Origin: a virus
Taxonomy: Duplodnaviria; Heunggongvirae; Uroviricota; Caudoviricetes
Strand: one strand, 5' to 3'
Length of the DNA: 23,978 nt
IMG/VR virus record: IMGVR_UViG_2600254997_000020
Location: 1 to 23,978 of that record
Made by a program: the position numbers and the translations under genes. This document shows positions 1 through 23,978 of this stretch, one piece after another (position 1 is the first letter of the stretch; every line of letters starts with the position of its first letter). The notes below the pieces were generated by a model, which saw only the letters and a program-made list of their open reading frames with translations, was not told where the DNA came from and ran no database searches.

Positions 1-54
1 CGCTACGCCTGATGAATCCCCTAATGATTTTTATCAAAATCATTAAGTTAAGGT

Positions 55-123
55 AGATACACATCTTGTCATATGATCAAATGGTTTCGCCAAAAATCAA
101 TAATCAGACAACAAAATGTGCGA
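55..123 (-). ncRNA. IS10 RNA-OUT antisense RNA (approximate coordinates)
   Basis: Placed from established IS10 biology: pOUT reads toward the outside end and overlaps the 5' end of the transposase mRNA. With the transposase ATG at IS10 bp 108 (window 116), the roughly 69-nt RNA-OUT maps here. Not independently verified in the sequence. Confidence 0.4.
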
Positions 124-1322
124 ACTCGATATTTTACACGACTCTCTTTACCAATTCTGCCCCGAATTACACTTAAAACGACTCAACAGCTTAACGTTGG
201 CTTGCCACGCATTACTTGACTGTAAAACTCTCACTCTTACCGAACTTGGCCGTAACCTGCCAACCAAAGCGAGAACAAAACATAACATCAAACGAATCGA
301 CCGATTGTTAGGTAATCGTCACCTCCACAAAGAGCGACTCGCTGTATACCGTTGGCATGCTAGCTTTATCTGTTCGGGCAATACGATGCCCATTGTACTT
401 GTTGACTGGTCTGATATCCGTGAGCAAAACGGCTTATGGTATTGCGAGCTTCAGTCGCACTACACGGTCGTTCTGTTACTCTTTATGAGAAAGCGTTCCC
501 GCTTTCAGAGCAATGTTCAAAGAAGCTCATGACCAATTTCTAGCCGACCTTGCGAGCATTCTACCGAGTAACACCACACCGCTCATTGTCAGTGATGCTG
601 GCTTTAAAGTGCCATGGTATAAATCCGTTGAGAAGCTGGGTTGGTACTGGTTAAGTCGAGTAAGAGGAAAAGTACAATATGCAGACCTAGGAGCGGAAAA
701 CTGGAAACCTATCAGCAACTTACATGATATGTCATCTAGTCACTCAAAGACTTTAGGCTATAAGAGGCTGACTAAAAGCAATCCAATCTCATGCCAAATT
801 CTATTGTATAAATCTCGCTCTAAAGGCCGAAAAAATCAGCGCTCGACACGGACTCATTGTCACCACCCGTCACCTAAAATCTACTCAGCGTCGGCAAAGG
901 AGCCATGGGTTCTAGCAACTAACTTACCTGTTGAAATTCGAACACCCAAACAACTTGTTAATATCTATTCGAAGCGAATGCAGATTGAAGAAACCTTCCG
1001 AGACTTGAAAAGTCCTGCCTACGGACTAGGCCTACGCCATAGCCGAACGAGCAGCTCAGAGCGTTTTGATATCATGCTGCTAATCGCCCTGATGCTTCAA
1101 CTAACATGCTGGCTTGCGGGCGTTCATGCTCAGAAACAAGGTTGGGACAAGCACTTCCAGGCTAACACAGTCAGAAATCGAAACGTACTCTCAACAGTTC
1201 GCTTAGGCATGGAAGTTTTGCGGCATTCTGGCTACACAATAACAAGGGAAGACTCACTCGTGGCTGCAACCCTGCTTACTCAAAATCTATTCACACATGG
1301 TTACGTTTTGGGGAAATTATGA
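116..1322 (+). pseudogene. IS10 transposase, reading frame interrupted by two single-base deletions (about 426-429 and 518-526)
   Basis: ORFs 116..532 and 513..1322 together match the IS10 transposase. The frame is lost between ...WSDIREQ and ...KKAHDQFLADL. The second break is at a position where the right copy is intact. Confidence 0.85.
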
Positions 1323-4300
1323 GGGGATCTCTCAGTACCAAGCACCCATTTTGCAATTGACGACTTCAGCGCGCCGTCACGGCGATCCGGGTAAACCGCA
1401 TGCTTCAGTGGGTCCGTATAGGTACCAACAAAATCGATGCTATAGCCTGACTCTGTAGTCTGAACGCCGTATGAGTCAGTGATTTTGATCATGCCGCGCT
1501 GCTGGAAACGGTAGAAATCGTCACAGGAAATGATGTCGTTAATCCCGGCGATGGAGACGCCACCACTGATTTTCTGCATAACAGCATCTTCATCGGGAGT
1601 TACATCAACCTGTTTATCCAGCGTCTTCACATCCCAGTTACCCGATTTGGTGCCTTTGAAGGTAAAGATGATCTCCACGTCTGCGCGCTGGCTGTCGAAG
1701 TCCAGCGACTTAATGCGAACGATATCACCGGCACAATCATAGTATTGGCCTACACGCCATGAGCGATCGCCGATAACAAGGAACTCATTCGCATGGTTAA
1801 CCAGATCAGGATCAACATCCAGAATGCCTTTATTTATTGCATCCTCCACCAGCGGGCGCAGGCGTTTGATATCCGTCGCGGCCTTCTGAGTACGGTTCAA
1901 TAATTTCTCATAGCGGGAGATGGCCTGAGAGATATTAGCCTTGCGCTGAATGGCGCTTTTCAACGACGCGCGATACTGTGCTAACAACGTACGGTCTGTG
2001 TGATGGACGCTACCCCAGCGGGCTTTCCAGTCTGCGTTATCAGCTGCTTTGGCCATTACCGCCTGTTTGAATTTGGCGACGTCGGCGGTGGTCTTTTCAA
2101 GTTCCGCTTTGCTTCGCTCTAATTCAGCGGTAAGCACCTCCACATCCTCACCAGCTGCGTGCTGCGCCTTGATGTAGTTCTGAAGGTCGATAGTAGCCTG
2201 TTCTTTCTGGCGAGCGCGTTGCGCGGCTTTCGCCTTATCCATTTGAACCTGCATCATTGCCAGACGTTCGCCATCATCCTTAGCGGTATACATCTGCATT
2301 TCGATCATATCGTTGGCGTCGGCGTTCTCCATTTCTGACTTATCTGAACGGAGGATATCGGAGATCCAGCCTGCTTTACGCTTCAGCGTCTTCAGTCGGT
2401 ATTCATCGAAAGAACCCTTGCCGCAGTAGTAGTGAACGCGAACGCTTGCACGGTTGGAGCCAACTCGGGCACCGCGACCGTTTCGTTGCGCAATACTGGC
2501 TGGAGTCCATGGCAACGTCAGATGATGGATGTCAGTCGTTCCTCGATGCAGGTTGATACCCACCTCTGCCTTTTTGTTGCAGATGATGATCGGAGTCCGG
2601 CCCTCCTGGAAGTCGGCTGCAATCTTTTCCAGACCGCCCAACGACATTTCATTTTGCTGCGCGATATAGGCGTCATACAGAGCCATTTGCTCGTTGTATT
2701 TCGCTATCTGTGCATCTGTTGGTTCATCCGGTAACTCTTTCGGCGGTTTAACCGCTTTCAGTTTCTTACCGGTTTTACCTGCCTCGGCAACCGTCTGAGC
2801 ATTCAGTATCCCCACCTTTGAAGGTTCAAGGTTAAGAGCATTGCAGATAATGCGCTTGAGCTTCTGGTGCTGCGTTTTTTCATCGGTGAAGATGATTTGC
2901 TTCCCTTCCGGGAAAAACTCCTTCAGCGTGGCAATCAGCTTCGCGTATTTGGGCGTAACGGGGTGAGTTACGGTCTGTTCGTCAATGCCAAACCTGGCCA
3001 GGCGCTTATTCACTTCCTGCTCGAACGCTTCCGGAACCTGCAACTGAATAAACTCGCCCTTATCTATCAGGGAGTATTGCGATTGCTGCGTGATTGAATC
3101 ATCACTGTCGTCGTCTTCGCTGGTGGCTTGTTTAGGCAAACTGTCTGCCAGCTGCTGCACCGCATCGGCGTACTCCGGCAGGAAACGATAGGTGATCCGG
3201 CGATAGTACAGGTCCATGTCAGTACATACGCGGTCCATATCCCTGATTATTGAGAAGATCGGACGGGCTTTCTCGTGCTCAATCACGCCGTCTTCATTGA
3301 CCGAGGTCGTTACACCATTGTTGGCTTTGGCCGCCGCTTCCGCCTGCTGACGCAATTCTTCATACGCCGCCAGTTGTTCTTCAGTAAGTGGTGCATCCTG
3401 CTGGTGTTCGTCCAGTTCCGGGATCTCCACGGTATCCTTAACGTCTTCCGCTGTTTTAAGCGTTGTCCAGCGATGGAATATGCCGCGCAGCGCATCAAGG
3501 TTTTCAAAACCCACCAGCGCCATTTTTTCTTCAACTTCGCCGCTGATTTTCTGTACCGTTTCCAGCCTGGTCTTGCCGAAGAATTTTACGAAGTCATCAG
3601 GACTGTAGATCCCCATCTTCTGCCAGTATTCCTTCGGCAGAACATGAGAAAGCATGTTGTATGCATCGATCGGGGTGTTAACGACTGGTGTTGCAGTCAG
3701 GAGAACCGGTCCGCGCCCGCCATTCTTTTTCATCAAGTACGCGTTTTTGATTGCCATATCTCGCGCCGATTGCGCCACCGCGCTGGTGGGCAGATAGGCC
3801 AGCTGTGACGCTTCGCGACCATTTTTATAGCTATTGCGGTAGTTGTGGCCTTCGTCAGCAATCACGCTGTCGAAGCCCATATCCTCAAAGTACGGATACT
3901 TCTCTGCTTTTTCGGTACCGGTATCTGAATACTCCGACAATACCCGGCGACGCGCCGCCTCTTTGCGGTGGGAGTCGGAGTCCATTGCGCTGGCTACGCG
4001 CCCGGCGGCAACGAAGTCATAAAGCATGTCTTGTGCATGCTCATCTACGGTGTCATCACGTAGCGGAATGCGGGCGTATTGTTCTTTGGTAAACACGACT
4101 GCACGGTAATTTGAGTGCGGGATCGCGTTCATCCGCGCCGTGATAGTGGCTTCATCTGCCAGCTTAAGAGCATCGCGCATAACTGGAGTGCCATCAGTAC
4201 CAAGAACAGGTTTACCGTTCTCATTGAGCACCGGCACCTGGCGAATCTGATCGCCATCCATCAGCACATCAAGACCGACGAACAAGTAGTTACTGAATGC

Positions 4301-7009
4301 CTCTTCACTCAGGAATTCTTTTGCTTCGTAATACCAATTTTCCAGCACTGATTTAGGCACTACATACGCAGTACGGGTGGAGCGACCGTTCTCATAGTTG
4401 AACGCCTCAAGCGCCAGCGCGGTCGTGGTTTTACCCAGCCCGGTGCCGAAGCCTAGGATGCCGCGCCCATCTTCGGACAGTCGGCGCACCTCGCTATTCT
4501 GGTAATCAAATGGCTGGCGCTTACCGCTTAATCCCTTCAACCCAAGCGGATCGCCAGAGTGTTCATACGGGATATTGCTATTGAACACATCGTTGTATTT
4601 GGCAACCAGCTCATCGTAGCGATCGTGCGTCTTGATCCACTTATTGAACTGGTCCTCAAGCAGTGCCATCTGCTCGCGGTAGCCGTTCGCCGTCGCGCTA
4701 TCTTTGCCACCGATACGCGCACCATTGAGATACTTTTCCAGCTGTGCCGGGAACCCGGTCGCGTTTTCACCTGATTTACGGTCCCACTCGTAGCGAATCT
4801 CACCTGTTTCTTTATCCTTGCGCTGGACGACACCGTATCGGTGCCCGACGAACAGACCATCACCACCGTGATAGGTGTCAGAAACCATTTCGTCGCCTTC
4901 CAGCTGCACTGACTGCACATAGCGCAGATCCGGATAGCCGTTTTCCTGCAAAAATTCCAGAATGACGGAACGGTCGAACCAACGGCTATTGAGCTTAAAC
5001 CGGATATTCTCTGCTGGCGTCTTGATGCGCTTCTCTTCGATAGCTGCCAGCTGATTAAGGACGTTGTTCTTTACTGGACCGTCGGGGAGTGTGGCGAGGA
5101 ATTCCTGTTTTGGAGCCACTATCTCGTTAATGTCGCCGCTGGTGGCGCGGGCGAACGGAACAATCCCGCCATACGGTGAAACCGCAATACCAGGGGTGCT
5201 GGCCAATAAATTAAGCAACTCTTCATCACTGGCTGGCAGTTCGCCGGTAAACGCAAGGCGGAAATCATCGAGCTGGATTGGATCGCGGGTGAGATCGCTA
5301 TAGAGATAACGCAGGGTGTCCTGATAGCTGGTGGAGTCATAACTTGCGCTGGAATCATGCGTAACCAGCTTCCCTGTCAGCTCGTCAGAAATAGTGCCAT
5401 CCAGCTTAATTGCACCACGGAAAGCAAACCAGGCGCGCGCACCGCTCCCCGACAATTTCGCTATCGGACCGCGACCGGGGTTACCAAAACGGTCAATCTC
5501 TGCCTGCAAACGGGATACCAGAGAAAGGCGCTGCTGTTCGATTTGTTCAGCACTATGCCCGGCGGCCTTCATGTCCTGATATTCAATTAACATCCGGCCA
5601 ATCATCGCCCCGCGATACAAGCGTTCACGGTATTTTTCAGGCTGGCTGTTAATCCAGTCCACCAGCTGCACCATATCGTCGCTGATTGATGTGGTGTACT
5701 TATCGCGGACATTTGCCATCTGGGTAAATGTCATGCCGAGACGGCCTTCTGTTGTAGTCAGGTTACGCTGAAGAGCCTCCCAGCTATCCGCGCCATAACT
5801 GGCAGCATCGATCTTAAGTTCCTTCCCGGCATCAGCTTCAATCCAGCGACCACCAGCATATTTTTGCCATACGCCATTAATCAGGCGCATTTCCCCTTCA
5901 CCAACAACGTCTGCGGTCGGTGACGGTTCAGCCATATCGAGCAAAGACCAGTCGATACGGCTTTCGAAACGATGAATCAGCTTCGCTTTAAGAGCCTGGT
6001 TATCAATCTGACCGTCGGCACGAACCTCAATACGCCCCTGGAAGCCCTTTTCCTGGGTGCCATGAACAAACCGGCGGCCGTCCTTTTCAAACCACTTGCC
6101 AGAAATAAACGTTGGCCAAAGCACATTTGCCGATTCGAGAGTGCTTTCATCCACCAGGGGGATTTTCTCAGCCATCTCTGCCGGATGTTTGCGCATCAGC
6201 ACCACATCAACAACTGTACTGGTCCCGTTTGCGTCAAAAGTACCGGTAGGCAAGCGGTGGGCACCAAGAAATTCAGCTTTCCGTGATAGGCGCAGGCGTA
6301 ACCGCTTCATGTTTGAACCTGAAACAATGGACGGCGGCACAATCACGCACATGAATCCGCCTGGCTTTATCTTGTCCAGCATGCGGAGCATGAAGTAAGA
6401 ACCCATGTCCGTTTCTTCTGCGTAAGGCTTATCGATGTTGCGTGTGTTATCACGACCACCGAACGGAACGTTACCCACAACATGGTCGAATGAATCGTTA
6501 GGCGTGCTTACAGCCAGTTGTTCGAACGGAGAAATCTGTACGCTGTCTTCCGGGTGCAACAGCTGGTTTATACGACCGGAAACACTGCTGATCTCAGTCG
6601 CGGTCATCACCGTACCAACCGGTTTTGTCTCATTAAAAACGCCGGTTCCCGCCGATGGTTCCAGAGTGTTACCTACGTCCGCGCCGTAGAGCTTCATGAT
6701 CTCCCAGACACCTTCAGCGATCGGCTTTGGTGTGTAATATTCGGAGACGGACCCGCCAATGCCGCCTTCGCCGGTGTACCCAGCCAGGATCTGGCGCTGT
6801 TCATCTGTCAGTGTCGCGCCGTCCACCAGCGAATTAAGCAAATCTATCGCCTTCTGATTCGCCTCCCGGCGTAGTCGGTCATAGCTTTTGCCTTCCACCT
6901 TTTCCACGCCGTATCTAATCGGCGCTCGGTGAGATGTTATTGCACTAATGTATTTCAATATTTCGCTGACACTTGAACAGCGAAACACCCCCATAGATAG
7001 CTTGTTCAT
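1301..7009 (-). CDS. darB: DarB-like antirestriction protein: N6-adenine methyltransferase fused to a superfamily-2 (DExH) helicase; C-terminus truncated by IS10
   Basis: 1902-aa ORF, ATG at 7009 with AAGGA upstream. SAM-binding motif LEPSAGTGVF (res 116-125) and NVPFGG (res 180-185, NPPF/Y-like motif IV). Helicase Walker A GFGTGLGKTTT (res 853-863), DEGH (res 1052-1055), TATP (res 1105-1108), QRNGRGARVG (res 1508-1517). The last 11 codons and the stop are IS10 inside-end sequence. Confidence 0.8.
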   Translation of the reverse strand: MNKLSMGVFRCSSVSEILKYISAITSHRAPIRYGVEKVEGKSYDRLRREANQKAIDLLNSLVDGATLTDEQRQILAGYTGEGGIGGSVSEYYTPKPIAEGVWEIMKLYGADVGNTLEPSAGTGVFNETKPVGTVMTATEISSVSGRINQLLHPEDSVQISPFEQLAVSTPNDSFDHVVGNVPFGGRDNTRNIDKPYAEETDMGSYFMLRMLDKIKPGGFMCVIVPPSIVSGSNMKRLRLRLSRKAEFLGAHRLPTGTFDANGTSTVVDVVLMRKHPAEMAEKIPLVDESTLESANVLWPTFISGKWFEKDGRRFVHGTQEKGFQGRIEVRADGQIDNQALKAKLIHRFESRIDWSLLDMAEPSPTADVVGEGEMRLINGVWQKYAGGRWIEADAGKELKIDAASYGADSWEALQRNLTTTEGRLGMTFTQMANVRDKYTTSISDDMVQLVDWINSQPEKYRERLYRGAMIGRMLIEYQDMKAAGHSAEQIEQQRLSLVSRLQAEIDRFGNPGRGPIAKLSGSGARAWFAFRGAIKLDGTISDELTGKLVTHDSSASYDSTSYQDTLRYLYSDLTRDPIQLDDFRLAFTGELPASDEELLNLLASTPGIAVSPYGGIVPFARATSGDINEIVAPKQEFLATLPDGPVKNNVLNQLAAIEEKRIKTPAENIRFKLNSRWFDRSVILEFLQENGYPDLRYVQSVQLEGDEMVSDTYHGGDGLFVGHRYGVVQRKDKETGEIRYEWDRKSGENATGFPAQLEKYLNGARIGGKDSATANGYREQMALLEDQFNKWIKTHDRYDELVAKYNDVFNSNIPYEHSGDPLGLKGLSGKRQPFDYQNSEVRRLSEDGRGILGFGTGLGKTTTALALEAFNYENGRSTRTAYVVPKSVLENWYYEAKEFLSEEAFSNYLFVGLDVLMDGDQIRQVPVLNENGKPVLGTDGTPVMRDALKLADEATITARMNAIPHSNYRAVVFTKEQYARIPLRDDTVDEHAQDMLYDFVAAGRVASAMDSDSHRKEAARRRVLSEYSDTGTEKAEKYPYFEDMGFDSVIADEGHNYRNSYKNGREASQLAYLPTSAVAQSARDMAIKNAYLMKKNGGRGPVLLTATPVVNTPIDAYNMLSHVLPKEYWQKMGIYSPDDFVKFFGKTRLETVQKISGEVEEKMALVGFENLDALRGIFHRWTTLKTAEDVKDTVEIPELDEHQQDAPLTEEQLAAYEELRQQAEAAAKANNGVTTSVNEDGVIEHEKARPIFSIIRDMDRVCTDMDLYYRRITYRFLPEYADAVQQLADSLPKQATSEDDDSDDSITQQSQYSLIDKGEFIQLQVPEAFEQEVNKRLARFGIDEQTVTHPVTPKYAKLIATLKEFFPEGKQIIFTDEKTQHQKLKRIICNALNLEPSKVGILNAQTVAEAGKTGKKLKAVKPPKELPDEPTDAQIAKYNEQMALYDAYIAQQNEMSLGGLEKIAADFQEGRTPIIICNKKAEVGINLHRGTTDIHHLTLPWTPASIAQRNGRGARVGSNRASVRVHYYCGKGSFDEYRLKTLKRKAGWISDILRSDKSEMENADANDMIEMQMYTAKDDGERLAMMQVQMDKAKAAQRARQKEQATIDLQNYIKAQHAAGEDVEVLTAELERSKAELEKTTADVAKFKQAVMAKAADNADWKARWGSVHHTDRTLLAQYRASLKSAIQRKANISQAISRYEKLLNRTQKAATDIKRLRPLVEDAINKGILDVDPDLVNHANEFLVIGDRSWRVGQYYDCAGDIVRIKSLDFDSQRADVEIIFTFKGTKSGNWDVKTLDKQVDVTPDEDAVMQKISGGVSIAGINDIISCDDFYRFQQRGMIKITDSYGVQTTESGYSIDFVGTYTDPLKHAVYPDRRDGALKSSIAKWVLGTERSPHNFPKT

Positions 7010-9807
<2,798 letters not shown>

Positions 9808-9812
9808 CCACC

Positions 9813-9846
9813 AAAAATAACCCCGGCAGCTGCCGGGGTTCTCGTT
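9813..9846. terminator. Bidirectional rho-independent terminator between convergent pro and lyz transcripts
   Basis: Perfect 18-bp palindrome CCCCGGCAGCTGCCGGGG (9821-9838), flanked by AAAAATAA upstream and TTCTCGTT downstream. The minus-strand reading has the better U-tract (TTATTTTTGG). Confidence 0.6.
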
Positions 9847-9851
9847 AACTA

Positions 9852-10100
9852 TTATCGCCTTCGTGCCATATATTTGCGCACCGCGCGGCGTGGACAATCT
9901 GAAGCGGTTTCTTTCTGCTGCATCAATCTCGCAGCCATGCTCAAAAATGTCAGGCACAGCCGAAGCCCGGCATACAATAGCGGTTCCAGTGGCCACGTCT
10001 CATTGAGCACATATACCGCCATGAAAATCGAGTCAAAAACTATCGCCGCCAGCGATAACTTCATTGTCGAAAGTCGGCGGAGCTGCCGGAGTTTATTCAT
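9852..10100 (-). CDS. Hypothetical small two-helix membrane protein, translationally coupled to lyz
   Basis: ATG at 10098-10100 overlaps the lyz stop (ATGAATAA). Two hydrophobic stretches (LSLAAIVFDSIFMAVYVL, LLYAGLRLCLTFLSMAARL). Followed by the terminator at 9821-9838. Weak RBS. Confidence 0.3.
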   Translation of the reverse strand: MNKLRQLRRLSTMKLSLAAIVFDSIFMAVYVLNETWPLEPLLYAGLRLCLTFLSMAARLMQQKETASDCPRRAVRKYMARRR

Positions 10101-10650
10101 TGACAAGCCCCGTCAGGCAAAGCTGGCGTTCTTTTTCACGGCGAATCTTTAAACCTCGCAGGGGCACGCCGTTACTGTTCACGAAATCAGGGAGATGGTT
10201 ACACATATTCACCCATTCCCCTTTCTGCGCCCACTTGTGGATGGACGTTTCTACTCGCATGCCTCGCGCTTTGCTGTAGTAGGTCCGTAAGCTATTGCAT
10301 CCCATATTGAATGCCGCGCTTGTCATTGCACTGAAGGCATTATCGGGCATGTCTTTGCCCCGGAAGTGCTGATTAATACAGCGTTCAGCGATCAGGATAT
10401 TCTTTTCCCAATCAGCGGCGATTTGCTGGTCGGTTTTTCGCACACCCGGCGTTACCCCGTGTGTATTACCGATCCCGTCAGTCCATACCCCCGCCGGGCA
10501 CATGTATGGATCACGTCGGCAACCTTCAGCGTTACCAATCAGCTCAAGCCCCGCCTGGTTGGTTCGCACATTGCCATTACCCATCACGATGGTAATCATC
10601 ACCGCGATAGCGCAAATTGCACCGCCTCCTGCGGCTGTTTTTCCCTTCAT
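10093..10650 (-). CDS. lyz: SAR (signal-arrest-release) endolysin, P1 Lyz-like lysozyme
   Basis: Start taken at internal ATG (10650) giving MKGKTAAGGGAICAIAVMITIVMGNGNV..., a Gly/Ala-rich SAR N-terminus, followed by a lysozyme-like catalytic region (LELIGNAEGCRRDPYMCPAGVWTDGIGNTHGV). The track ORF begins 33 codons upstream. Confidence 0.9.
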   Translation of the reverse strand: MKGKTAAGGGAICAIAVMITIVMGNGNVRTNQAGLELIGNAEGCRRDPYMCPAGVWTDGIGNTHGVTPGVRKTDQQIAADWEKNILIAERCINQHFRGKDMPDNAFSAMTSAAFNMGCNSLRTYYSKARGMRVETSIHKWAQKGEWVNMCNHLPDFVNSNGVPLRGLKIRREKERQLCLTGLVNE

Positions 10651-10819
10651 AAAGACCTCATAAGCGAATTTTTTACGCTCCAGGACAAACACCCATTCAC
10701 AGCCAATACCGACTGACTCGATCCCTTTAGAAGGCACAGGATAATGCAAATCACTTGTTAGCTACGTTTCAAAGATATACATTATTGCTCTAATTAATTT
10801 ATTTTATTAGGTAAGATAA

Positions 10820-11308
10820 GTGGCACAACGCGGTGTAAACAAAGTCATCCTGATTGGTACCCTGGGGCAAGACCCGGAGATCAGGTATATACCAAATGGC
10901 GGAGCGGTCGGAAGACTCAGCATCGCAACGAATGAATCATGGCGCGACAAGCAAACGGGCCAACAGAAAGAGCAAACAGAATGGCATAGAGTCGTTTTGT
11001 TCGGGAAACTTGCTGAAATTGCGAGTGAGTATTTACGAAAAGGTTCTCAGGTCTACATCGAAGGGAAACTTAAAACCCGTAAGTGGACAGATGACGCCGG
11101 TGTAGAACGTTACACGACGGAAATTATCGTCAGCCAGGGCGGAACTATGCAAATGATCGGCGCCCGCCGCGACGATTCACAGTCCTCAAATGGCTGGGGG
11201 CAATCAAACCAACCTCAAAACCACCAGCAATACAGCGGTGGCGGCAAACCTCAGAGCAGCGCCAATAACGAACCTCCAATGGACTTTGACGACGATATTC
11301 CGTTTTAG
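10820..11308 (+). CDS. ssb: Single-stranded DNA-binding protein
   Basis: 162 aa, very similar to E. coli SSB in the N-terminal OB fold ([19 protein letters not shown]...[32 protein letters not shown]), Gly/Gln-rich linker and acidic tail [12 protein letters not shown] start. Confidence 0.95.
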
Positions 11309-11353
11309 AGTTAACTTGTGAGTTATTTGTAAATAGTTCATACACAGGCCCCT

Positions 11354-11361
11354 GTTAATAC
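11354..11361. repeat. Target-site duplication (left copy) of the IS50-like element, GTTAATAC
   Basis: Identical 8-mer immediately flanks both ends of the element (11354-11361 and 12913-12920). Confidence 0.6.
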
Positions 11362-18917: not shown

Positions 18918-20833
18918 GCCGCTACCCCCGCTTTCTGGATTGCTACCAGCAGATCAGCCAGGTGGCGAGCAGCGCCATTAACCAGCTCTTCGTTTTCCTC
19001 AAAACGCCCGGCAGCCTGAAGGGCTGCAATCGCTTCCCGGACATTGCCCCGGGCGTTACGGATCTCCGCCATGTCAGTGCTTTGCATATCCATCACGTTA
19101 TTGAGATATTCAATGGCTTTATTAGCCTCTGCATCTGCTTCGCTAACCGTTTCATCAGGCTGTGCCGGGGCAGGTTCTGGCTGAGTAATCTCACCGACTT
19201 CGGCCTGCAATGCATTGATCATGCTCTGCACCATTTTCTCGGTGCCAGCGCCCCCCGGATACGCAATATTGGGGAAAGTTTTTTGAAACTGAGTTTTCAG
19301 CATTACGCGGAACTCGTCTGGTGAGCTGGTGGCCAGCTCCAGAGCTTTTTGTGCATATTTGCCAAACGGACCATTAGTAAGTGTCTTCGCCAAGAAGTCG
19401 AAAGAATCCTCGCGAGGCAATAACTTCAGGTCGTACTCACTCATTTGCTGATCAGAAAGCGGGGTATCGTAAGTAGCAATGCCGTAGCGTGCATATTCAT
19501 AATATGGGTCACCTTCATCAGGGCGCGGCAGAATTGCTTTGTTACCTTCAGGTATTGCGCCAGGGGCCGCCGGACGCATTTGCAGGGCATATCGATATGC
19601 ACCTACAGAGACTTCTGGTTCAGGCGAAGAGCTACCGGTATCCTCCGCTGGTTCAGGTTCGACGTTTTCCGGTTTATGTTCTTCTGGTTGGACCAGGTAT
19701 TCCGATACATTACCCGCTTTATAGGCTTTAAACAGCTTGCCGATCGCATCTGCCATGTCCACACCCTGTATGGATTTAGCCTTGATCATGTACACGCTGC
19801 CATCCGAATCGGTTAACTGGATATACCCTTCACCGTCCTCAATGAATTGCTTCATTGATGCACCATTACTGAGCGTCACTTCCCCGTTCATATGCATACG
19901 ATTTTTGATACTTGCAAGGCGATCCGTCATCGCGCGAGAGTGTCCACCAGTCATCCCCGCAGGAGCAATGGTTTCGCGCCCACCAGTTCGATTGAGCTGA
20001 TCAATCTCCGTCTGCAAACGCTCATTCTCTTCATAAAGAGAATCCGCTTCCGATGCAACAGCGTTAATTTTCTGCTCCAGATCTACCTTCTGCCCTTCTA
20101 CCGCTGCCACCTGATCCGCGAGGTCGCTCATGGCATCCTCTTTCTGGTCACTGTCAGCCTGTAGTTGGGTTATTTCATCAACCAGGGCTTTTTTCTTCTT
20201 CTGCGCACGCTGGAATTTTGCCGAGTTTTTCTCTGCAAGGTTGGCAAGTTTCATGGTGACCTGCGCCAGCGTCATATCACGTCCACTCATCGGAGCAACG
20301 GTATGAGTAACGTCTTTTTTATTCAGTAAGAACTGGAAAGCAATCAGCGTATCGCTATTGGTGATCCGGTTTTCCGCTGTCGGGCTATGAAACAGAATGC
20401 TGATAGTCTGACCATCACTGAGCGGAATAATGGCTGGCAGGACCGGCAGCCCGTTAACGTTACGTGCCCGGCCAATTTCAGCCCCGCCGATCGCGCGTGC
20501 ACCGTTCTGGGCCACATCCCCCTTTTTATCACTCCCCGCAGAGATTCCGGTACCATTCAGCTTCTGGTTTAATGCCCGGACAAATGCCTGCATGGTCCGG
20601 TGTAACTGCAAACGAGTAGAACTAATCGCCTCCAGTAAATCCGTAGCACACCAGTGGATCGGCGTGTCATAGAAGAACGTAGCCTCGATTTCCTCCAGGG
20701 TGTTGGATTCCGTCATCAGATAGCGGTCCTCACCGGCCATTAATGCGCGATATTCATCATCAGTCACTGGCGGGGGAAGCACGTCAAGCCCAGGCTTGAT
20801 CGTCACCCCTTTATTGATATTGAACTGTTCCAT
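18914..20833 (-). CDS. darA: DarA-like virion antirestriction protein (639 aa)
   Basis: 639-aa ORF following the hdf-like gene, with a central coiled-coil. An internal segment (LSDGQTISI...TLAQVTMKLANLAEKNSAKFQRAQ) is paralogous to the upstream hdf-like product. Confidence 0.7.
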   Translation of the reverse strand: MEQFNINKGVTIKPGLDVLPPPVTDDEYRALMAGEDRYLMTESNTLEEIEATFFYDTPIHWCATDLLEAISSTRLQLHRTMQAFVRALNQKLNGTGISAGSDKKGDVAQNGARAIGGAEIGRARNVNGLPVLPAIIPLSDGQTISILFHSPTAENRITNSDTLIAFQFLLNKKDVTHTVAPMSGRDMTLAQVTMKLANLAEKNSAKFQRAQKKKKALVDEITQLQADSDQKEDAMSDLADQVAAVEGQKVDLEQKINAVASEADSLYEENERLQTEIDQLNRTGGRETIAPAGMTGGHSRAMTDRLASIKNRMHMNGEVTLSNGASMKQFIEDGEGYIQLTDSDGSVYMIKAKSIQGVDMADAIGKLFKAYKAGNVSEYLVQPEEHKPENVEPEPAEDTGSSSPEPEVSVGAYRYALQMRPAAPGAIPEGNKAILPRPDEGDPYYEYARYGIATYDTPLSDQQMSEYDLKLLPREDSFDFLAKTLTNGPFGKYAQKALELATSSPDEFRVMLKTQFQKTFPNIAYPGGAGTEKMVQSMINALQAEVGEITQPEPAPAQPDETVSEADAEANKAIEYLNNVMDMQSTDMAEIRNARGNVREAIAALQAAGRFEENEELVNGAARHLADLLVAIQKAGVAA

Positions 20834-20834
20834 G

Positions 20835-21446
20835 TTAATTTCCTGCTTTCAGTTGCTTAAGACGGCGTTTGAGTTCGCCATTTCGGGCCTTTTCGTTATT
20901 GAGTCGGCCTGTCTCCTTATCCAGCTTCGCCCGCAAATCAGTGATCTGCTGTTGATTGAAAGACACCGAGTTCTGCGCTGATTTATAAGCGGCAACCACC
21001 TGAGCATTCCGCTGTTTTGCCTCTTGCAGGCGCTGAAAGTTGGATTTTACTGCCGGTTTCTTGTCTACCGGATTGGCAACACGTTTCGCTTTGGCGATCA
21101 GTGATTTCTGGAATTTTGCGGAGCTTTTGCGGGCCGCTTGCCCCATGACGGTACCAAGCGTCTTGATATCCGGCGACTGAGCGTTAGGAATAGCTTTTCC
21201 ATTCAGCCTCACAGACGATATATCGCCAGTATCGTTTACCTGTATGGCAAGAATTTGTCCGTCGTTAAGAACCAGCTTTGCGGTTTTAACTTTAACGCCA
21301 TCTTTCGTTGTTGCGCGGTTGCTGGAGTCAACCTCAATTACCGTAACACCGGTTTTATTGATCGCCGCGATAAGGGATTTCAGCCCCTTTTCATTAACCT
21401 GGTCAAAATCGACCGTTGCATACTTATTTTTCGTCATCTGACACAT
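20835..21446 (-). CDS. hdf: Hdf-like protein (homolog of a DarA fragment)
   Basis: LNDGQILAI...TLGTVMGQAARKSSAKFQKSL aligns with the DarA-like internal segment. True start may be the ATG at 21437 (AGGA upstream). Stop abuts the darA-like start. Confidence 0.65.
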   Translation of the reverse strand: MCQMTKNKYATVDFDQVNEKGLKSLIAAINKTGVTVIEVDSSNRATTKDGVKVKTAKLVLNDGQILAIQVNDTGDISSVRLNGKAIPNAQSPDIKTLGTVMGQAARKSSAKFQKSLIAKAKRVANPVDKKPAVKSNFQRLQEAKQRNAQVVAAYKSAQNSVSFNQQQITDLRAKLDKETGRLNNEKARNGELKRRLKQLKAGN

Positions 21447-22531: not shown

Positions 22532-22724
22532 TTTTTACCTATACAACAGTAAGTTGAACAACATTTGAGAACGGTATGCACTTTGTGATTTCCACACACA
22601 CTGGTTTTGTTAATTAAAACCTGTAGCTTGCAATAAATAACGATAGTGGGCAGAAAATATGCTAATAGGCTATGTACGCATATAGACAAATGAACAAAAC
22701 ACAGCTATGCACTGAGAGATCCCC

Positions 22725-23930
22725 TCATAATTTCCCCAAAGCGTAACCATGTGTGAATAAATTTTGAGCTAGTAGGGTTGCAGCCACGAGTAAGTCTTCC
22801 CTTGTTATTGTGTAGCCAGAATGCCGCAAAACTTCCATGCCTAAGCGAACTGTTGAGAGTACGTTTCGATTTCTGACTGTGTTAGCCTGGAAGTGCTTGT
22901 CCCAACCTTGTTTCTGAGCATGAACGCCCGCAAGCCAACATGTTAGTTGAAGCATCAGGGCGATTAGCAGCATGATATCAAAACGCTCTGAGCTGCTCGT
23001 TCGGCTATGGCGTAGGCCTAGTCCGTAGGCAGGACTTTTCAAGTCTCGGAAGGTTTCTTCAATCTGCATTCGCTTCGAATAGATATTAACAAGTTGTTTG
23101 GGTGTTCGAATTTCAACAGGTAAGTTAGTTGCTAGAACCATGGCTCCTTTGCCGACGCTGAGTAGATTTTAGGTGACGGGTGGTGACAATGAGTCCGTGT
23201 CGAGCGCTGATTTTTTCGGCCTTTAGAGCGAGATTTATACAATAGAATTTGGCATGAGATTGGATTGCTTTTAGTCAGCCTCTTATAGCCTAAAGTCTTT
23301 GAGTGACTAGATGACATATCATGTAAGTTGCTGATAGGTTTCCAGTTTTCCGCTCCTAGGTCTGCATATTGTACTTTTCCTCTTACTCGACTTAACCAGT
23401 ACCAACCCAGCTTCTCAACGGATTTATACCATGGCACTTTAAAGCCAGCATCACTGACAATGAGCGGTGTGGTGTTACTCGGTAGAATGCTCGCAAGGTC
23501 GGCTAGAAATTGGTCATGAGCTTTCTTTGAACATTGCTCTGAAAGCGGGAACGCTTTCTCATAAAGAGTAACAGAACGACCGTGTAGTGCGACTGAAGCT
23601 CGCAATACCATAAGCGTTTTTGCTCACGATATCAGACCAGTCAACAAGTACAATGGGCATCGTATTGCCCGAACAGATAAAGCTAGCATGCCAACGGTAT
23701 ACAGCGAGTCGCTCTTTGTGGAGGTGACGATTACCTAACAATCGGTCGATTCGTTTGATGTTATGTTTTGTTCTCGCTTTGGTTGGCAGGTTACGGCCAA
23801 GTTCGGTAAGAGTGAGAGTTTTACAGTCAAGTAATGCGTGGCAAGCCAACGTTAAGCTGTTGAGTCGTTTTAAGTGTAATTCGGGGCAGAATTGGTAAAG
23901 AGAGTCGTGTAAAATATCGAGTTCGCACAT
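22725..23930 (-). pseudogene. IS10 transposase, reading frame interrupted by three single-base deletions (about 23137-23139, 23615, 23628)
   Basis: Three ORF fragments (23559..23930, 23132..23611, 22725..23141) together cover the IS10 transposase. Deletions are at positions where the left copy is intact. Confidence 0.85.
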
Positions 23931-23978
23931 CTTGTTGTCTGATTATTGATTTTTCGCGAAACCATTTGATCATATGAC
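23923..23978 (+). ncRNA. IS10 RNA-OUT antisense RNA, right copy (partial, approximate)
   Basis: Mirror-image placement of the left-copy RNA-OUT; truncated by the window edge. From established IS10 biology, not verified in the sequence. Confidence 0.3.

What the first reader, a model, noticed from the sequence alone, without database searches (positions are those of the whole stretch)
1301..1345. The darB-like giant ORF reads straight into the IS10 inside end and is truncated
The 1902-aa ORF continues without a stop across the junction at 1335/1336. Its last 11 codons (ERSPHNFPKT plus stop) are encoded by IS10 sequence. As I recall it, P1 DarB is about 2255 aa, so roughly 350 C-terminal residues appear to be missing while the methyltransferase and helicase domains are retained. 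This may give a truncated but enzymatically competent DarB, or one that is no longer packaged into virions.
Basis: partly seen in the sequence, partly recalled or inferred. Interest (0 to 1): 0.6.

Follow-up and report, generated by a model that had tools for sequence, protein, structure and literature searches.

The report
IS10 insertion truncating P1 prophage darB
A common jumping gene (IS10) has landed inside darB, the giant anti-restriction gene of a P1-like prophage in the classic EPEC strain E851/71, cutting off the last 364 of its 2255 amino acids; this is a real but ordinary insertion mutation, notable only because IS10 has hit the same 9-bp spot independently in another plasmid.

Summary
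The ORF at 1301..7009 (-) is P1 darB. It matches P1 DarB residue for residue up to 1891 of 2255, with 16 substitutions. At 1335/1336 it runs into the inside end of an IS10 (9..1335). IS10 supplies 11 residues (TERSPHNFPKT) and the stop, so 364 C-terminal residues are missing, not about 350.

Full-length homologues, including a divergent Cronobacter phage, extend to the same C-terminus.

The window is a whole draft contig, ALNX01000038.1, from E. coli E851/71. A second assembly contains the identical junction, so the junction is not an assembly artefact.

[quoted passage not shown] It loses a conserved C-terminal region. I infer loss or weakening of DarB function; this was not tested.

Whether the darB 3' part survives elsewhere in the genome could not be determined. 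The 8 bp beyond the IS10 are not P1 sequence, but the IS10 interiors look like mixed repeat consensus.

Two extras emerged:
- The same 9-bp target carries an independent IS10, in the opposite orientation, in plasmid pSCLS1.
- The contig as a whole reads IS10-left type, 21.4 kb of P1 DNA, IS10-right type, arranged as in Tn10.

Interest is low.

The parts
1301..7009 (-). Truncated darB ORF, 1902 codons. Residues 1-1891 are P1 DarB; residues 1892-1902 are read from IS10.
   Evidence: The protein is WP_244573750.1 'N-6 DNA methylase [Escherichia coli]' and is found on only 2 contigs.
1301..1335 (-). IS10-encoded tail. The last two bases of codon 1892 plus ERSPHNFPKT and TAA give the protein tail TERSPHNFPKT*.
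   Evidence: Direct reading; translation.
1336..1344 (.). 9-bp IS10 target TACCAAGCA (P1 11563-11571). It is present once in the window, next to the inside end.
   Evidence: The same 9 bp is duplicated around an independent IS10 in pSCLS1. It matches the NGCTNAGCN consensus at 4 of 6 specified positions.
9..1335 (+). IS10 copy, 1327 bp, of the IS10-left/ISVsa5 type. The outside end is at 9 and the inside end at 1335.
   Evidence: Diagnostic end variants equal the jemA-side IS10 of a Tn10. It has two single-base homopolymer deletions relative to intact copies.
116..1322 (+). IS10 transposase reading frame, split into 116..532 and 513..1322 by the two 1-bp deletions. These are probably consensus errors in a repeat.
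54..123 (-). RNA-OUT antisense RNA gene of IS10. It is on the same strand as darB and points out of the contig.
   Evidence: RF00240, 97.3 bits.
1..8 (.). Left flank CGCTACGC beyond the IS10 outside end. It is neither the expected duplicate of TACCAAGCA nor P1 darB sequence.
7010..7085 (.). Divergent darB/prt promoter region, near-identical to P1 (one indel and one substitution).
15552..21446 (-). hdf-darA-ddrA-ddrB, the other Dar genes. All are intact at P1 lengths (203, 639, 121 and 995 aa).
22659..22711 (+). 5' remnant of a cin pseudogene with TAG at codon 9. The same stop is present in phage vB_EcoM-673R5. It ends at the second IS10; the adjacent 9 bp are AGCTATGCA.
22712..23978 (-). Second IS10, of the IS10-right type. 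The inside end is at 22712. The contig end cuts it 62 bp short of the outside end. It has three single-base deletions.

Best explanation
What it is (shown): an IS10 element of the IS10-left/ISVsa5 sequence type sits in the darB gene of a P1-like prophage of enteropathogenic E. coli E851/71. Its inside end abuts the 9-bp site TACCAAGCA, equivalent to P1 11563-11571. IS10 normally moves by cut-and-paste transposition.

Translation of darB now runs 35 nt into the IS and stops. The predicted product has 1902 aa: DarB residues 1-1891 plus TERSPHNFPKT. It keeps the N-terminal capsid-targeting signal, the N6-adenine methyltransferase module and the SNF2-type helicase module. It lacks the last 364 residues.

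Consequences (inferred):
- The allele is a null or a hypomorph. The lost region is collinear and conserved in all full-length homologues, and its last ~55 residues are 89% identical even in a distant phage.
- If ulx still lies downstream, the 1.3-kb insertion uncouples it from the darB promoter. Ulx is needed for DarB-dependent protection.
- Any virions made by this element would therefore lose protection against EcoK/EcoB-type type I restriction.
- The DarA arm (hdf-darA-ddrA-ddrB, intact here) would still protect against EcoA-type systems.

The site itself is a recurrent IS10 target.
For: - Junction and register.
- P1 darB coordinates and length; 2255 aa is also stated in PMC11109961.
- Independent confirmation: a second assembly is 100% identical across the junction.
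- Source strain E851/71: PMC3897749.
- Domains upstream of the break. The motifs GNVPFG, GTGLGKT and DEGH are visible.
- N-terminal 30-aa packaging signal: PMC9024508.
- Roles of the Dar proteins and their order of packaging: PMC12810830.
- C-terminal region present in every P1-like phage record. Against JK004 it is 71.4% identical without gaps, and residues 2201-2255 are 89% identical.
- Full length is 2255 aa for most members read from the 16340-member cluster.
- Recurrent target: pSCLS1 has an IS10-right-type copy in the opposite orientation at the identical 9 bp, with a clean duplication. Public C-terminal DarB fragments of different alleles start at residues 1888-1892.
Against: - No 9-bp duplicate is seen. 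The 8 bp left of the IS10 (CGCTACGC) are not TACCAAGCA and not P1 sequence. As assembled, this is not a simple insertion.
- The functional consequence is wholly inferred. No published work on C-terminal DarB truncations was found.
- The AlphaFold model of residues 1731-2255 was too poor (mean pLDDT 39.8) to say whether the break cuts a domain.
- The region 1601-2200 is the least conserved part of DarB (63-77% identity to JK004), so part of it may be dispensable.
- Whether this P1-like element is a complete, inducible prophage is unknown.
Confidence: 0.85

Rival explanations
1. This is not a simple insertion but an IS10-mediated rearrangement. The 21.4-kb P1 block (darB' to cin') is bounded by an IS10-left-type and an IS10-right-type copy. 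Their outside ends point outwards and their inside ends face the P1 DNA. Three routes could give this: a Tn10-like composite transposon; the product of Tn10 inside-end transposition into a P1 plasmid followed by an adjacent deletion; or recombination between IS10 copies. Under this reading the darB 3' end is deleted or lies far away, and the block may be a prophage remnant.
For: - The arrangement and IS10 types match a real Tn10.
- The left flank is neither P1 sequence nor the target duplicate.
- The two inner 9-bp flanks differ, TACCAAGCA versus AGCTATGCA.
- Neither junction, nor the predicted outside-end junction with darB 3', occurs in complete E. coli genomes, PLSDB, IMG/VR or GTDB representative genomes.
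Against: - The window is a whole draft contig that ends in repeats.
- The IS10 interiors are mosaics of left-type and right-type variants with five 1-bp deletions. This points to a mixed repeat consensus, so the 8-bp flank may belong to another IS10 copy.
- All 11 P1 genes checked in the block are intact at P1 lengths, as expected for a recently functional prophage.
- pSCLS1 shows that a plain insertion at this site happens.
Confidence: 0.33
2. The truncated DarB is still functional. It would be packaged through its N-terminal signal and be active as a methyltransferase-helicase, so anti-restriction is retained. Recurrent breaks at this codon might even mark a tolerated domain boundary.
For: - The packaging signal and all recognisable catalytic modules are retained.
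- Residues 1601-2200 are the least conserved part of the protein.
- Independent events hit the same site.
Against: - The extreme C-terminus is highly conserved (89% over residues 2201-2255).
- Every P1-like phage record keeps the full region.
- Recurrence is explained more simply by IS10 target preference.
- Loss of transcriptional coupling to ulx is expected. This last point is inference.
Confidence: 0.2
3. The junction is an assembly chimera: reads from an IS10 elsewhere were joined to an intact darB.
For: The contig ends in repeats, and the IS10 consensus is visibly error-prone.
Against: A second assembly with different contig ends contains the identical junction plus 158 nt of the same IS10 type, with 0 mismatches over 10,260 bp. 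The break falls exactly at the IS10 terminal base.
Confidence: 0.03
4. DarB homologues of this lineage naturally end here, and IS10 merely sits downstream of an intact gene.
For: None found.
Against: There is no stop codon before the IS. P1, P7, SJ46, RCS47, JL22 and JK004 all continue for 364 (363) more residues. The full-length cluster members read are 2255 aa.
Confidence: 0.01

Closest known systems
P1 DarB (YP_006479.1, 2255 aa), the virion-packaged methyltransferase-helicase that defends against EcoK/EcoB type I restriction
   Same: Residues 1-1891 are 99% identical and in register. Synteny with prt/pro and the promoter region is the same. The N-terminal targeting signal, MTase and SNF2 modules are present.
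   Different: It lacks residues 1892-2255 and carries an 11-residue IS10-encoded tail. ulx and lxc are not on the contig.
darB::IS10 in plasmid pSCLS1 (NZ_CP123964.1, E. coli L6-21)
   Same: IS10 sits at exactly the same 9-bp target, TACCAAGCA, inside darB.
   Different: The orientation is opposite (the outside end abuts the darB 5' part). The copy is of the IS10-right type. A clean 9-bp duplication is visible and the darB 3' part is retained next to the IS. It is therefore an independent event.
Tn10 (IS10-left, tet/jem module, IS10-right)
   Same: The two IS10 sequence types are the same, and so is their relative arrangement: outside ends and RNA-OUT point outwards, inside ends point inwards.
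   Different: The central module is 21.4 kb of P1 DNA instead of jemA-C/tetR/tetA/tetC/tetD. The outer target duplication is not observable. The arrangement may simply reflect two separate insertions in a draft contig.
Classical IS insertion mutations in P1, including dar mutants (Iida et al. 1987, Virology 157:156; Sengstag and Arber 1983). These are cited from my own knowledge; the papers were not read here.
   Same: An IS interrupts a non-essential P1 gene in a lysogen.
   Different: This is a natural allele in a clinical EPEC isolate rather than a laboratory isolate.

Membership tests
IS10 (IS4 family) | Terminal sequences: outside end CTGATGAATCCCC..., inside end CTGAGAGATCCCC... | tested here: met
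   Exact matches at 9..31 and 1310..1335, with 0 expected by chance. The element is 1327 of 1329 bp aligned to intact copies.
IS10 (IS4 family) | 402-aa DDE transposase ORF reading from the outside end towards the inside end | tested here: inconclusive
   The ORF is present but split by two 1-bp homopolymer deletions. These are probably consensus errors, but inactive copies cannot be excluded.
IS10 (IS4 family) | RNA-OUT antisense gene at the outside end | tested here: met
   RF00240 at 54..123 (-), 97.3 bits against a gathering score of 41.
IS10 (IS4 family) | 9-bp direct duplication of the target flanking the element | tested here: not met
   The inside flank is TACCAAGCA; the outside flank is (N)CGCTACGC. 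Linkage across the repeat is unreliable in this draft contig. The same site does show the duplication in pSCLS1.
DarB (P1 defence against restriction B) | N-terminal capsid-targeting sequence (first 30 aa) | tested here: met
   Residues 1-30 match P1 except S22R. The signal is defined in PMC9024508. Packaging itself was not tested.
DarB (P1 defence against restriction B) | N6-adenine MTase module fused to an SNF2-type helicase module | tested here: met
   The Pfam matches N6_Mtase/Eco57I, SNF2-rel_dom/ResIII and Helicase_C all lie at P1 residues below 1518. The same families are recorded for the window protein.
DarB (P1 defence against restriction B) | Full-length architecture of ~2255 aa, including the conserved C-terminal region | tested here: not met
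   The protein ends at residue 1891 plus 11 foreign residues. Full-length homologues keep the region.
DarB (P1 defence against restriction B) | Protects phage DNA in cis against EcoK/EcoB restriction | not testable with these tools
   This needs efficiency-of-plating assays. Plasmid-borne darB DNA can itself alleviate EcoKI restriction (PMC11109961), so the tests must use virions.
Tn10-like composite transposon | Two IS10 copies in inverted orientation with the outside ends outermost | tested here: met
Tn10-like composite transposon | 9-bp target duplication outside both IS10 copies, which would be evidence of movement as a unit | not testable with these tools
   The right IS10 is cut by the contig end, and only 8 bp are available on the left.

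The most novel reading that the evidence does not exclude
The block IS10-left type, 21.4 kb of P1 DNA, IS10-right type is a genuine Tn10-derived composite element. It would have formed when the inside ends of a resident Tn10 captured part of a P1 plasmid, replacing the tet module. It now carries the Dar anti-restriction operon, a dGTPase defence gene, and lysis and portal genes as a mobile unit outside a complete prophage. Separately, TACCAAGCA in darB would be a context-dependent IS10 hot spot that repeatedly inactivates DarB in natural P1-like plasmids.
Probability: 0.12. Interest if true: 0.45.

Novelty: new member of a known kind. Interest (0 to 1): 0.2.

Why it matters
The finding matters little in itself. 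IS insertions in accessory prophage genes are routine, and RefSeq already lists this product as an 'N-6 DNA methylase'.

It has three modest uses:
- It is a natural C-terminal truncation allele of DarB. It could be used to ask what the uncharacterised last 364 residues do, since packaging signal and catalytic modules are retained.
- Together with pSCLS1, it shows that one 9-bp site in darB, matching the IS10 consensus at only 4 of 6 positions, is hit repeatedly. That makes it a convenient natural example of context-dependent IS10 target choice.
- It warns annotators that this 1902-aa protein is a pseudogene product rather than a DarB variant.

Tried and rejected
- Exact-junction scans found nothing in GTDB representative genomes or in IMG/VR, for both the observed junction and the predicted outside-end junction.
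- BLAST of the left junction, the right junction and a synthetic darB-3'/outside-end junction found no record covering 80% or more of the query in complete E. coli genomes or PLSDB.
- The search for the missing darB 3' part in the same genome failed. The search for homologous proteins with the P1 C-terminal 364 aa returned only cluster representatives. The other contigs of ALNX01 and NKAA01 cannot be enumerated with these tools.
A model of residues 1731-2255, made from a returned fragment with a 15-sequence alignment, had mean pLDDT 39.8. It was not used for fold search.
- The PDB sequence search gave only weak hits to type I MTase and SNF2 proteins and nothing for the C-terminus. Pfam found nothing in the last 364 aa.
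- An apparent match of the 8-bp left flank to an rbsR::IS10 site in E. coli O39:NM turned out to be a chance similarity between consensus-like targets.
- CGCTACGC does not occur in the P1 8-35 kb stretch or the 673R5 stretch examined. An adjacent deletion ending within darB 3'/ulx/lxc is therefore not supported.
- Lobocka 2004 and Piya 2017 are not held in the library. A literature search for E851/71 genome papers found nothing.
Full report
**Observation**

The window holds a 1902-codon ORF on the minus strand, 1301..7009. Megablast of 1336..7100 hits darB plus the prt start of P1, P7 and 17 other P1-like phages at 98.0-98.7% identity over the full length. In the P1 reference, darB is 10469..17236 (-), 2255 aa.

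A position-by-position comparison shows that the window protein keeps P1 numbering through residue 1891, with 16 substitutions and no indel. It differs at almost every position from 1892 on. The window reads ...AKWVLG-TERSPHNFPKT*; P1 reads ...AKWVLG-MMSEGNNRQVRL....

At the DNA level, P1 reads ...cagacatca|taccaagcaccc and the window reads ...gaggggatctctcag|taccaagcaccc. The break is therefore exactly at window 1335/1336, equal to P1 11562/11563. Codon 1892 straddles it.

The sequence to the left is IS10.
- The exact inside-end 26-mer is at 1310..1335 and the outside end is at 9..31; none is expected by chance.
- The transposase frame starts at 116.
- Rfam RNA-OUT lies at 54..123.

The corrections are that 364 residues, not about 350, are missing, and that 11 new residues (not 10) precede the stop.

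**Where the sequence comes from**

An exact-protein look-up shows that the window is the complete 23,978-bp contig ALNX01000038.1 of assembly GCA_000754045.1. PMC3897749 names ALNX00000000 as E. coli E851/71, which from my own knowledge is a classic O142:H6 EPEC strain.

The same 1902-aa protein occurs on one other contig, NKAA01000097.1 of GCA_002461505.1. That contig is 100% identical to window 1178..11437. It stops 158 nt into the IS10 and 76 nt into another IS. Two assemblies with different contig breaks share the junction, so the junction is real.

The junction is absent from 5,426 complete E. coli genomes, PLSDB, the phage collection, GTDB representative genomes and IMG/VR.

**Is the gene really truncated?**

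Yes.
- In the cluster of 16,340 DarB sequences, most of the members read are 2255 aa.
- The last 364 aa of P1 DarB are found in all 18 P1-like phage records at 96.5-100% identity. They are found at 71% in Cronobacter phage JK004.
- A full alignment of P1 DarB with JK004 DarB (2224 aa) has no gap after residue 100 apart from one position.
- Identity to JK004 is 85-99% across the enzymatic core. It is 63-77% over residues 1601-2200 and rises to 89% for residues 2201-2255.

The lost part thus includes a conserved terminal element. An AlphaFold2 model of residues 1731-2255 was poor overall (mean pLDDT 39.8). It was moderately confident only for the last ~90 residues, which formed a small alpha/beta unit. 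I did not use this model further.

**What is kept**

The Pfam matches on P1 DarB are N6_Mtase/Eco57I at 145-290, SNF2/ResIII at 833-911 and Helicase_C at 1455-1517. Nothing matches in the last 364 aa. The motifs GNVPFG, GTGLGKT and DEGH are visible in the window protein.

Gonzales et al. [quoted passage not shown] This signal is retained with one substitution.

However, Ulx, encoded just downstream of darB in P1, is required together with DarB and DdrB for protection against EcoK/EcoB (PMC12810830). A 1.3-kb insertion would uncouple ulx from the darB promoter. That is my inference, not a result.

The other Dar genes, hdf, darA, ddrA and ddrB, are intact at P1 lengths.

My best reading is a darB null or hypomorph, with the DarA arm unaffected. 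This is inference only.

**The wider structure**

A second IS10 starts at 22712, with its inside end facing the P1 DNA, and runs to the contig end. I compared both copies with a genuine Tn10, found through TetR(B) in plasmid CP029979.
- The left copy has the end variants of the jemA-side IS10 (IS10-left, the ISVsa5 type common in wild E. coli).
- The right copy has those of the tetD-side IS10 (IS10-right).
- The relative arrangement is that of Tn10.

The DNA between the two copies is collinear P1-like sequence from darB' to a cin remnant, equivalent to P1 11563..31707. In this lineage cin was already a pseudogene, with TAG at codon 9 as in phage vB_EcoM-673R5.

The 9 bp next to the two inside ends differ: TACCAAGCA on the left and AGCTATGCA on the right. 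The 8 bp left of the left IS10 (CGCTACGC) are neither the expected duplicate nor any sequence in the P1 or 673R5 stretches examined. Taken at face value, this argues for a rearrangement or a composite element rather than two simple insertions.

I do not take it at face value, for three reasons.
- The contig ends in multi-copy repeats.
- The IS10 interiors are mosaics: right-type bases at positions 203 and 903 of the left copy, and a left-type base at position 425 of the right copy.
- Both copies carry single-base deletions, five in all. The frames of all 11 P1 genes checked in the 21-kb unique region are intact.

This is the signature of a mixed repeat consensus. Linkage across the central part of the two copies, which is identical apart from indels, is therefore unsafe. 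The two readings stay open: roughly 55% for a simple insertion and about one third for a rearrangement.

**A recurrent target**

I looked for the missing 3' part among public DarB C-terminal fragments. Eight fragments of several different alleles begin at residues 1888-1892 (WVLGMM, VLGMM, LGMM, GMM, MM). Most are annotated as partial, so they probably start at contig edges.

A 160-nt probe across the site matched 654 complete E. coli records, and 22 of them matched only partially. Two of the partial matches were inspected.

The first is plasmid pSCLS1 (NZ_CP123964.1). It has an IS10-right-type copy at exactly the same 9 bp but in the opposite orientation. The duplication is clean...gacatcaTACCAAGCA|ctgagagatcc... 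on one side and ...ggggattcatcag|TACCAAGCAcccatt... on the other. The darB 3' part is still present. It is the only such record in either complete collection. Opposite orientation and a different IS10 type make it an independent event.

The second is the TL012 chromosome, where an IS1 end abuts darB about 10 bp away from the site.

The target matches NGCTNAGCN at only 4 of 6 specified positions. darB contains 259 such sites, 33 sites matching at 5 of 6, and one at 6 of 6. Reuse of this one site therefore suggests context-dependent preference. That is known behaviour for IS10 (my own knowledge, Bender and Kleckner 1992), so it is a small observation rather than a new principle.

**Verdict**

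This is a real, correctly described IS10 insertional truncation of a P1-type darB in a clinical EPEC strain. It belongs to a textbook class of mutation.

Three functional questions cannot be answered with these tools: whether the product is active, whether it is packaged, and whether the prophage is complete. The most interesting residue is the repeated use of one 9-bp site and the Tn10-like bracketing of 21 kb of P1 DNA. The bracketing could equally be an artefact of draft assembly. Interest is low (0.2).

Noticed in passing
window 1336-1344; L007 (NZ_CP123964.1 1-3723) 630-650; L009 (NZ_CP123964.1 129500-133547) 3340-3365: The same 9-bp darB site, TACCAAGCA, carries an independent IS10 in complete plasmid pSCLS1. 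That copy is of the IS10-right type, in the opposite orientation, with a clean 9-bp duplication. Public draft assemblies also hold DarB C-terminal fragments of different alleles starting at residues 1888-1892. The site looks like an IS10 hot spot although it matches the consensus at only 4 of 6 positions.
   Followed up: partly
window 9-1335 and 22712-23978: The contig is bracketed by an IS10-left-type and an IS10-right-type copy arranged as in Tn10, with outside ends and RNA-OUT pointing outwards. In place of the tet module there are 21.4 kb of P1 DNA. Both transposase frames are broken by single-base deletions, five in all. The interior variants are mosaic, which suggests a mixed repeat consensus.
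   Followed up: partly
window 11362-12912: A 1551-bp IS50-like (Tn5-type, IS4 family) element has ends CTGTCTCTTGATCAGATCT and CTGTCTCTTATACACAAATCC and an 8-bp duplication GTTAATAC. It is inserted in the hairpin just after ssb and is absent from phage vB_EcoM-673R5. Its transposase is split into two ORFs (375 aa at 11620..12747; the Tn5 dimerisation domain lies in a separate 127-aa ORF at 11373..11756). The second assembly's contig breaks inside it, so it is probably multi-copy.
   Followed up: partly
window 13017-14471 (+): A dGTPase-type anti-phage defence gene (PADLOC dGTPase, E = 7.9e-149; Pfam HD + HD_assoc) occupies the position of P1 isaA-IS1-isaB between ssb and hxr. Phage vB_EcoM-673R5 has the same arrangement. 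A 122-aa ORF of unknown function follows at 14679-15047 (-).
   Followed up: partly
window 22659-22711: cin, the C-segment invertase gene, is a pseudogene in this lineage. TAG at codon 9 is also present in phage vB_EcoM-673R5, which encodes Hin-like invertase fragments on the other strand further on. The second IS10 therefore sits in an already dead gene.
   Followed up: partly
L008 (NZ_CP123951.1 3533519-3541610) 3983-4010: The chromosome of E. coli TL012 carries a darB fragment (a 936-aa 'helicase-related protein') whose end abuts an IS1 about 10 bp from the IS10 target used in the window. It is a P1 remnant flanked by IS1 copies.
   Followed up: no
listing (complete E. coli records matching P1 11488-11647): In an evenly spaced sample of complete P1-like plasmids, roughly a third annotate this part of darB as 'helicase-related protein' or 'DEAD/DEAH box helicase' rather than 'N-6 DNA methylase'. 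This suggests that split or frameshifted darB genes, whether real or sequencing errors, are common in public records.
   Followed up: no
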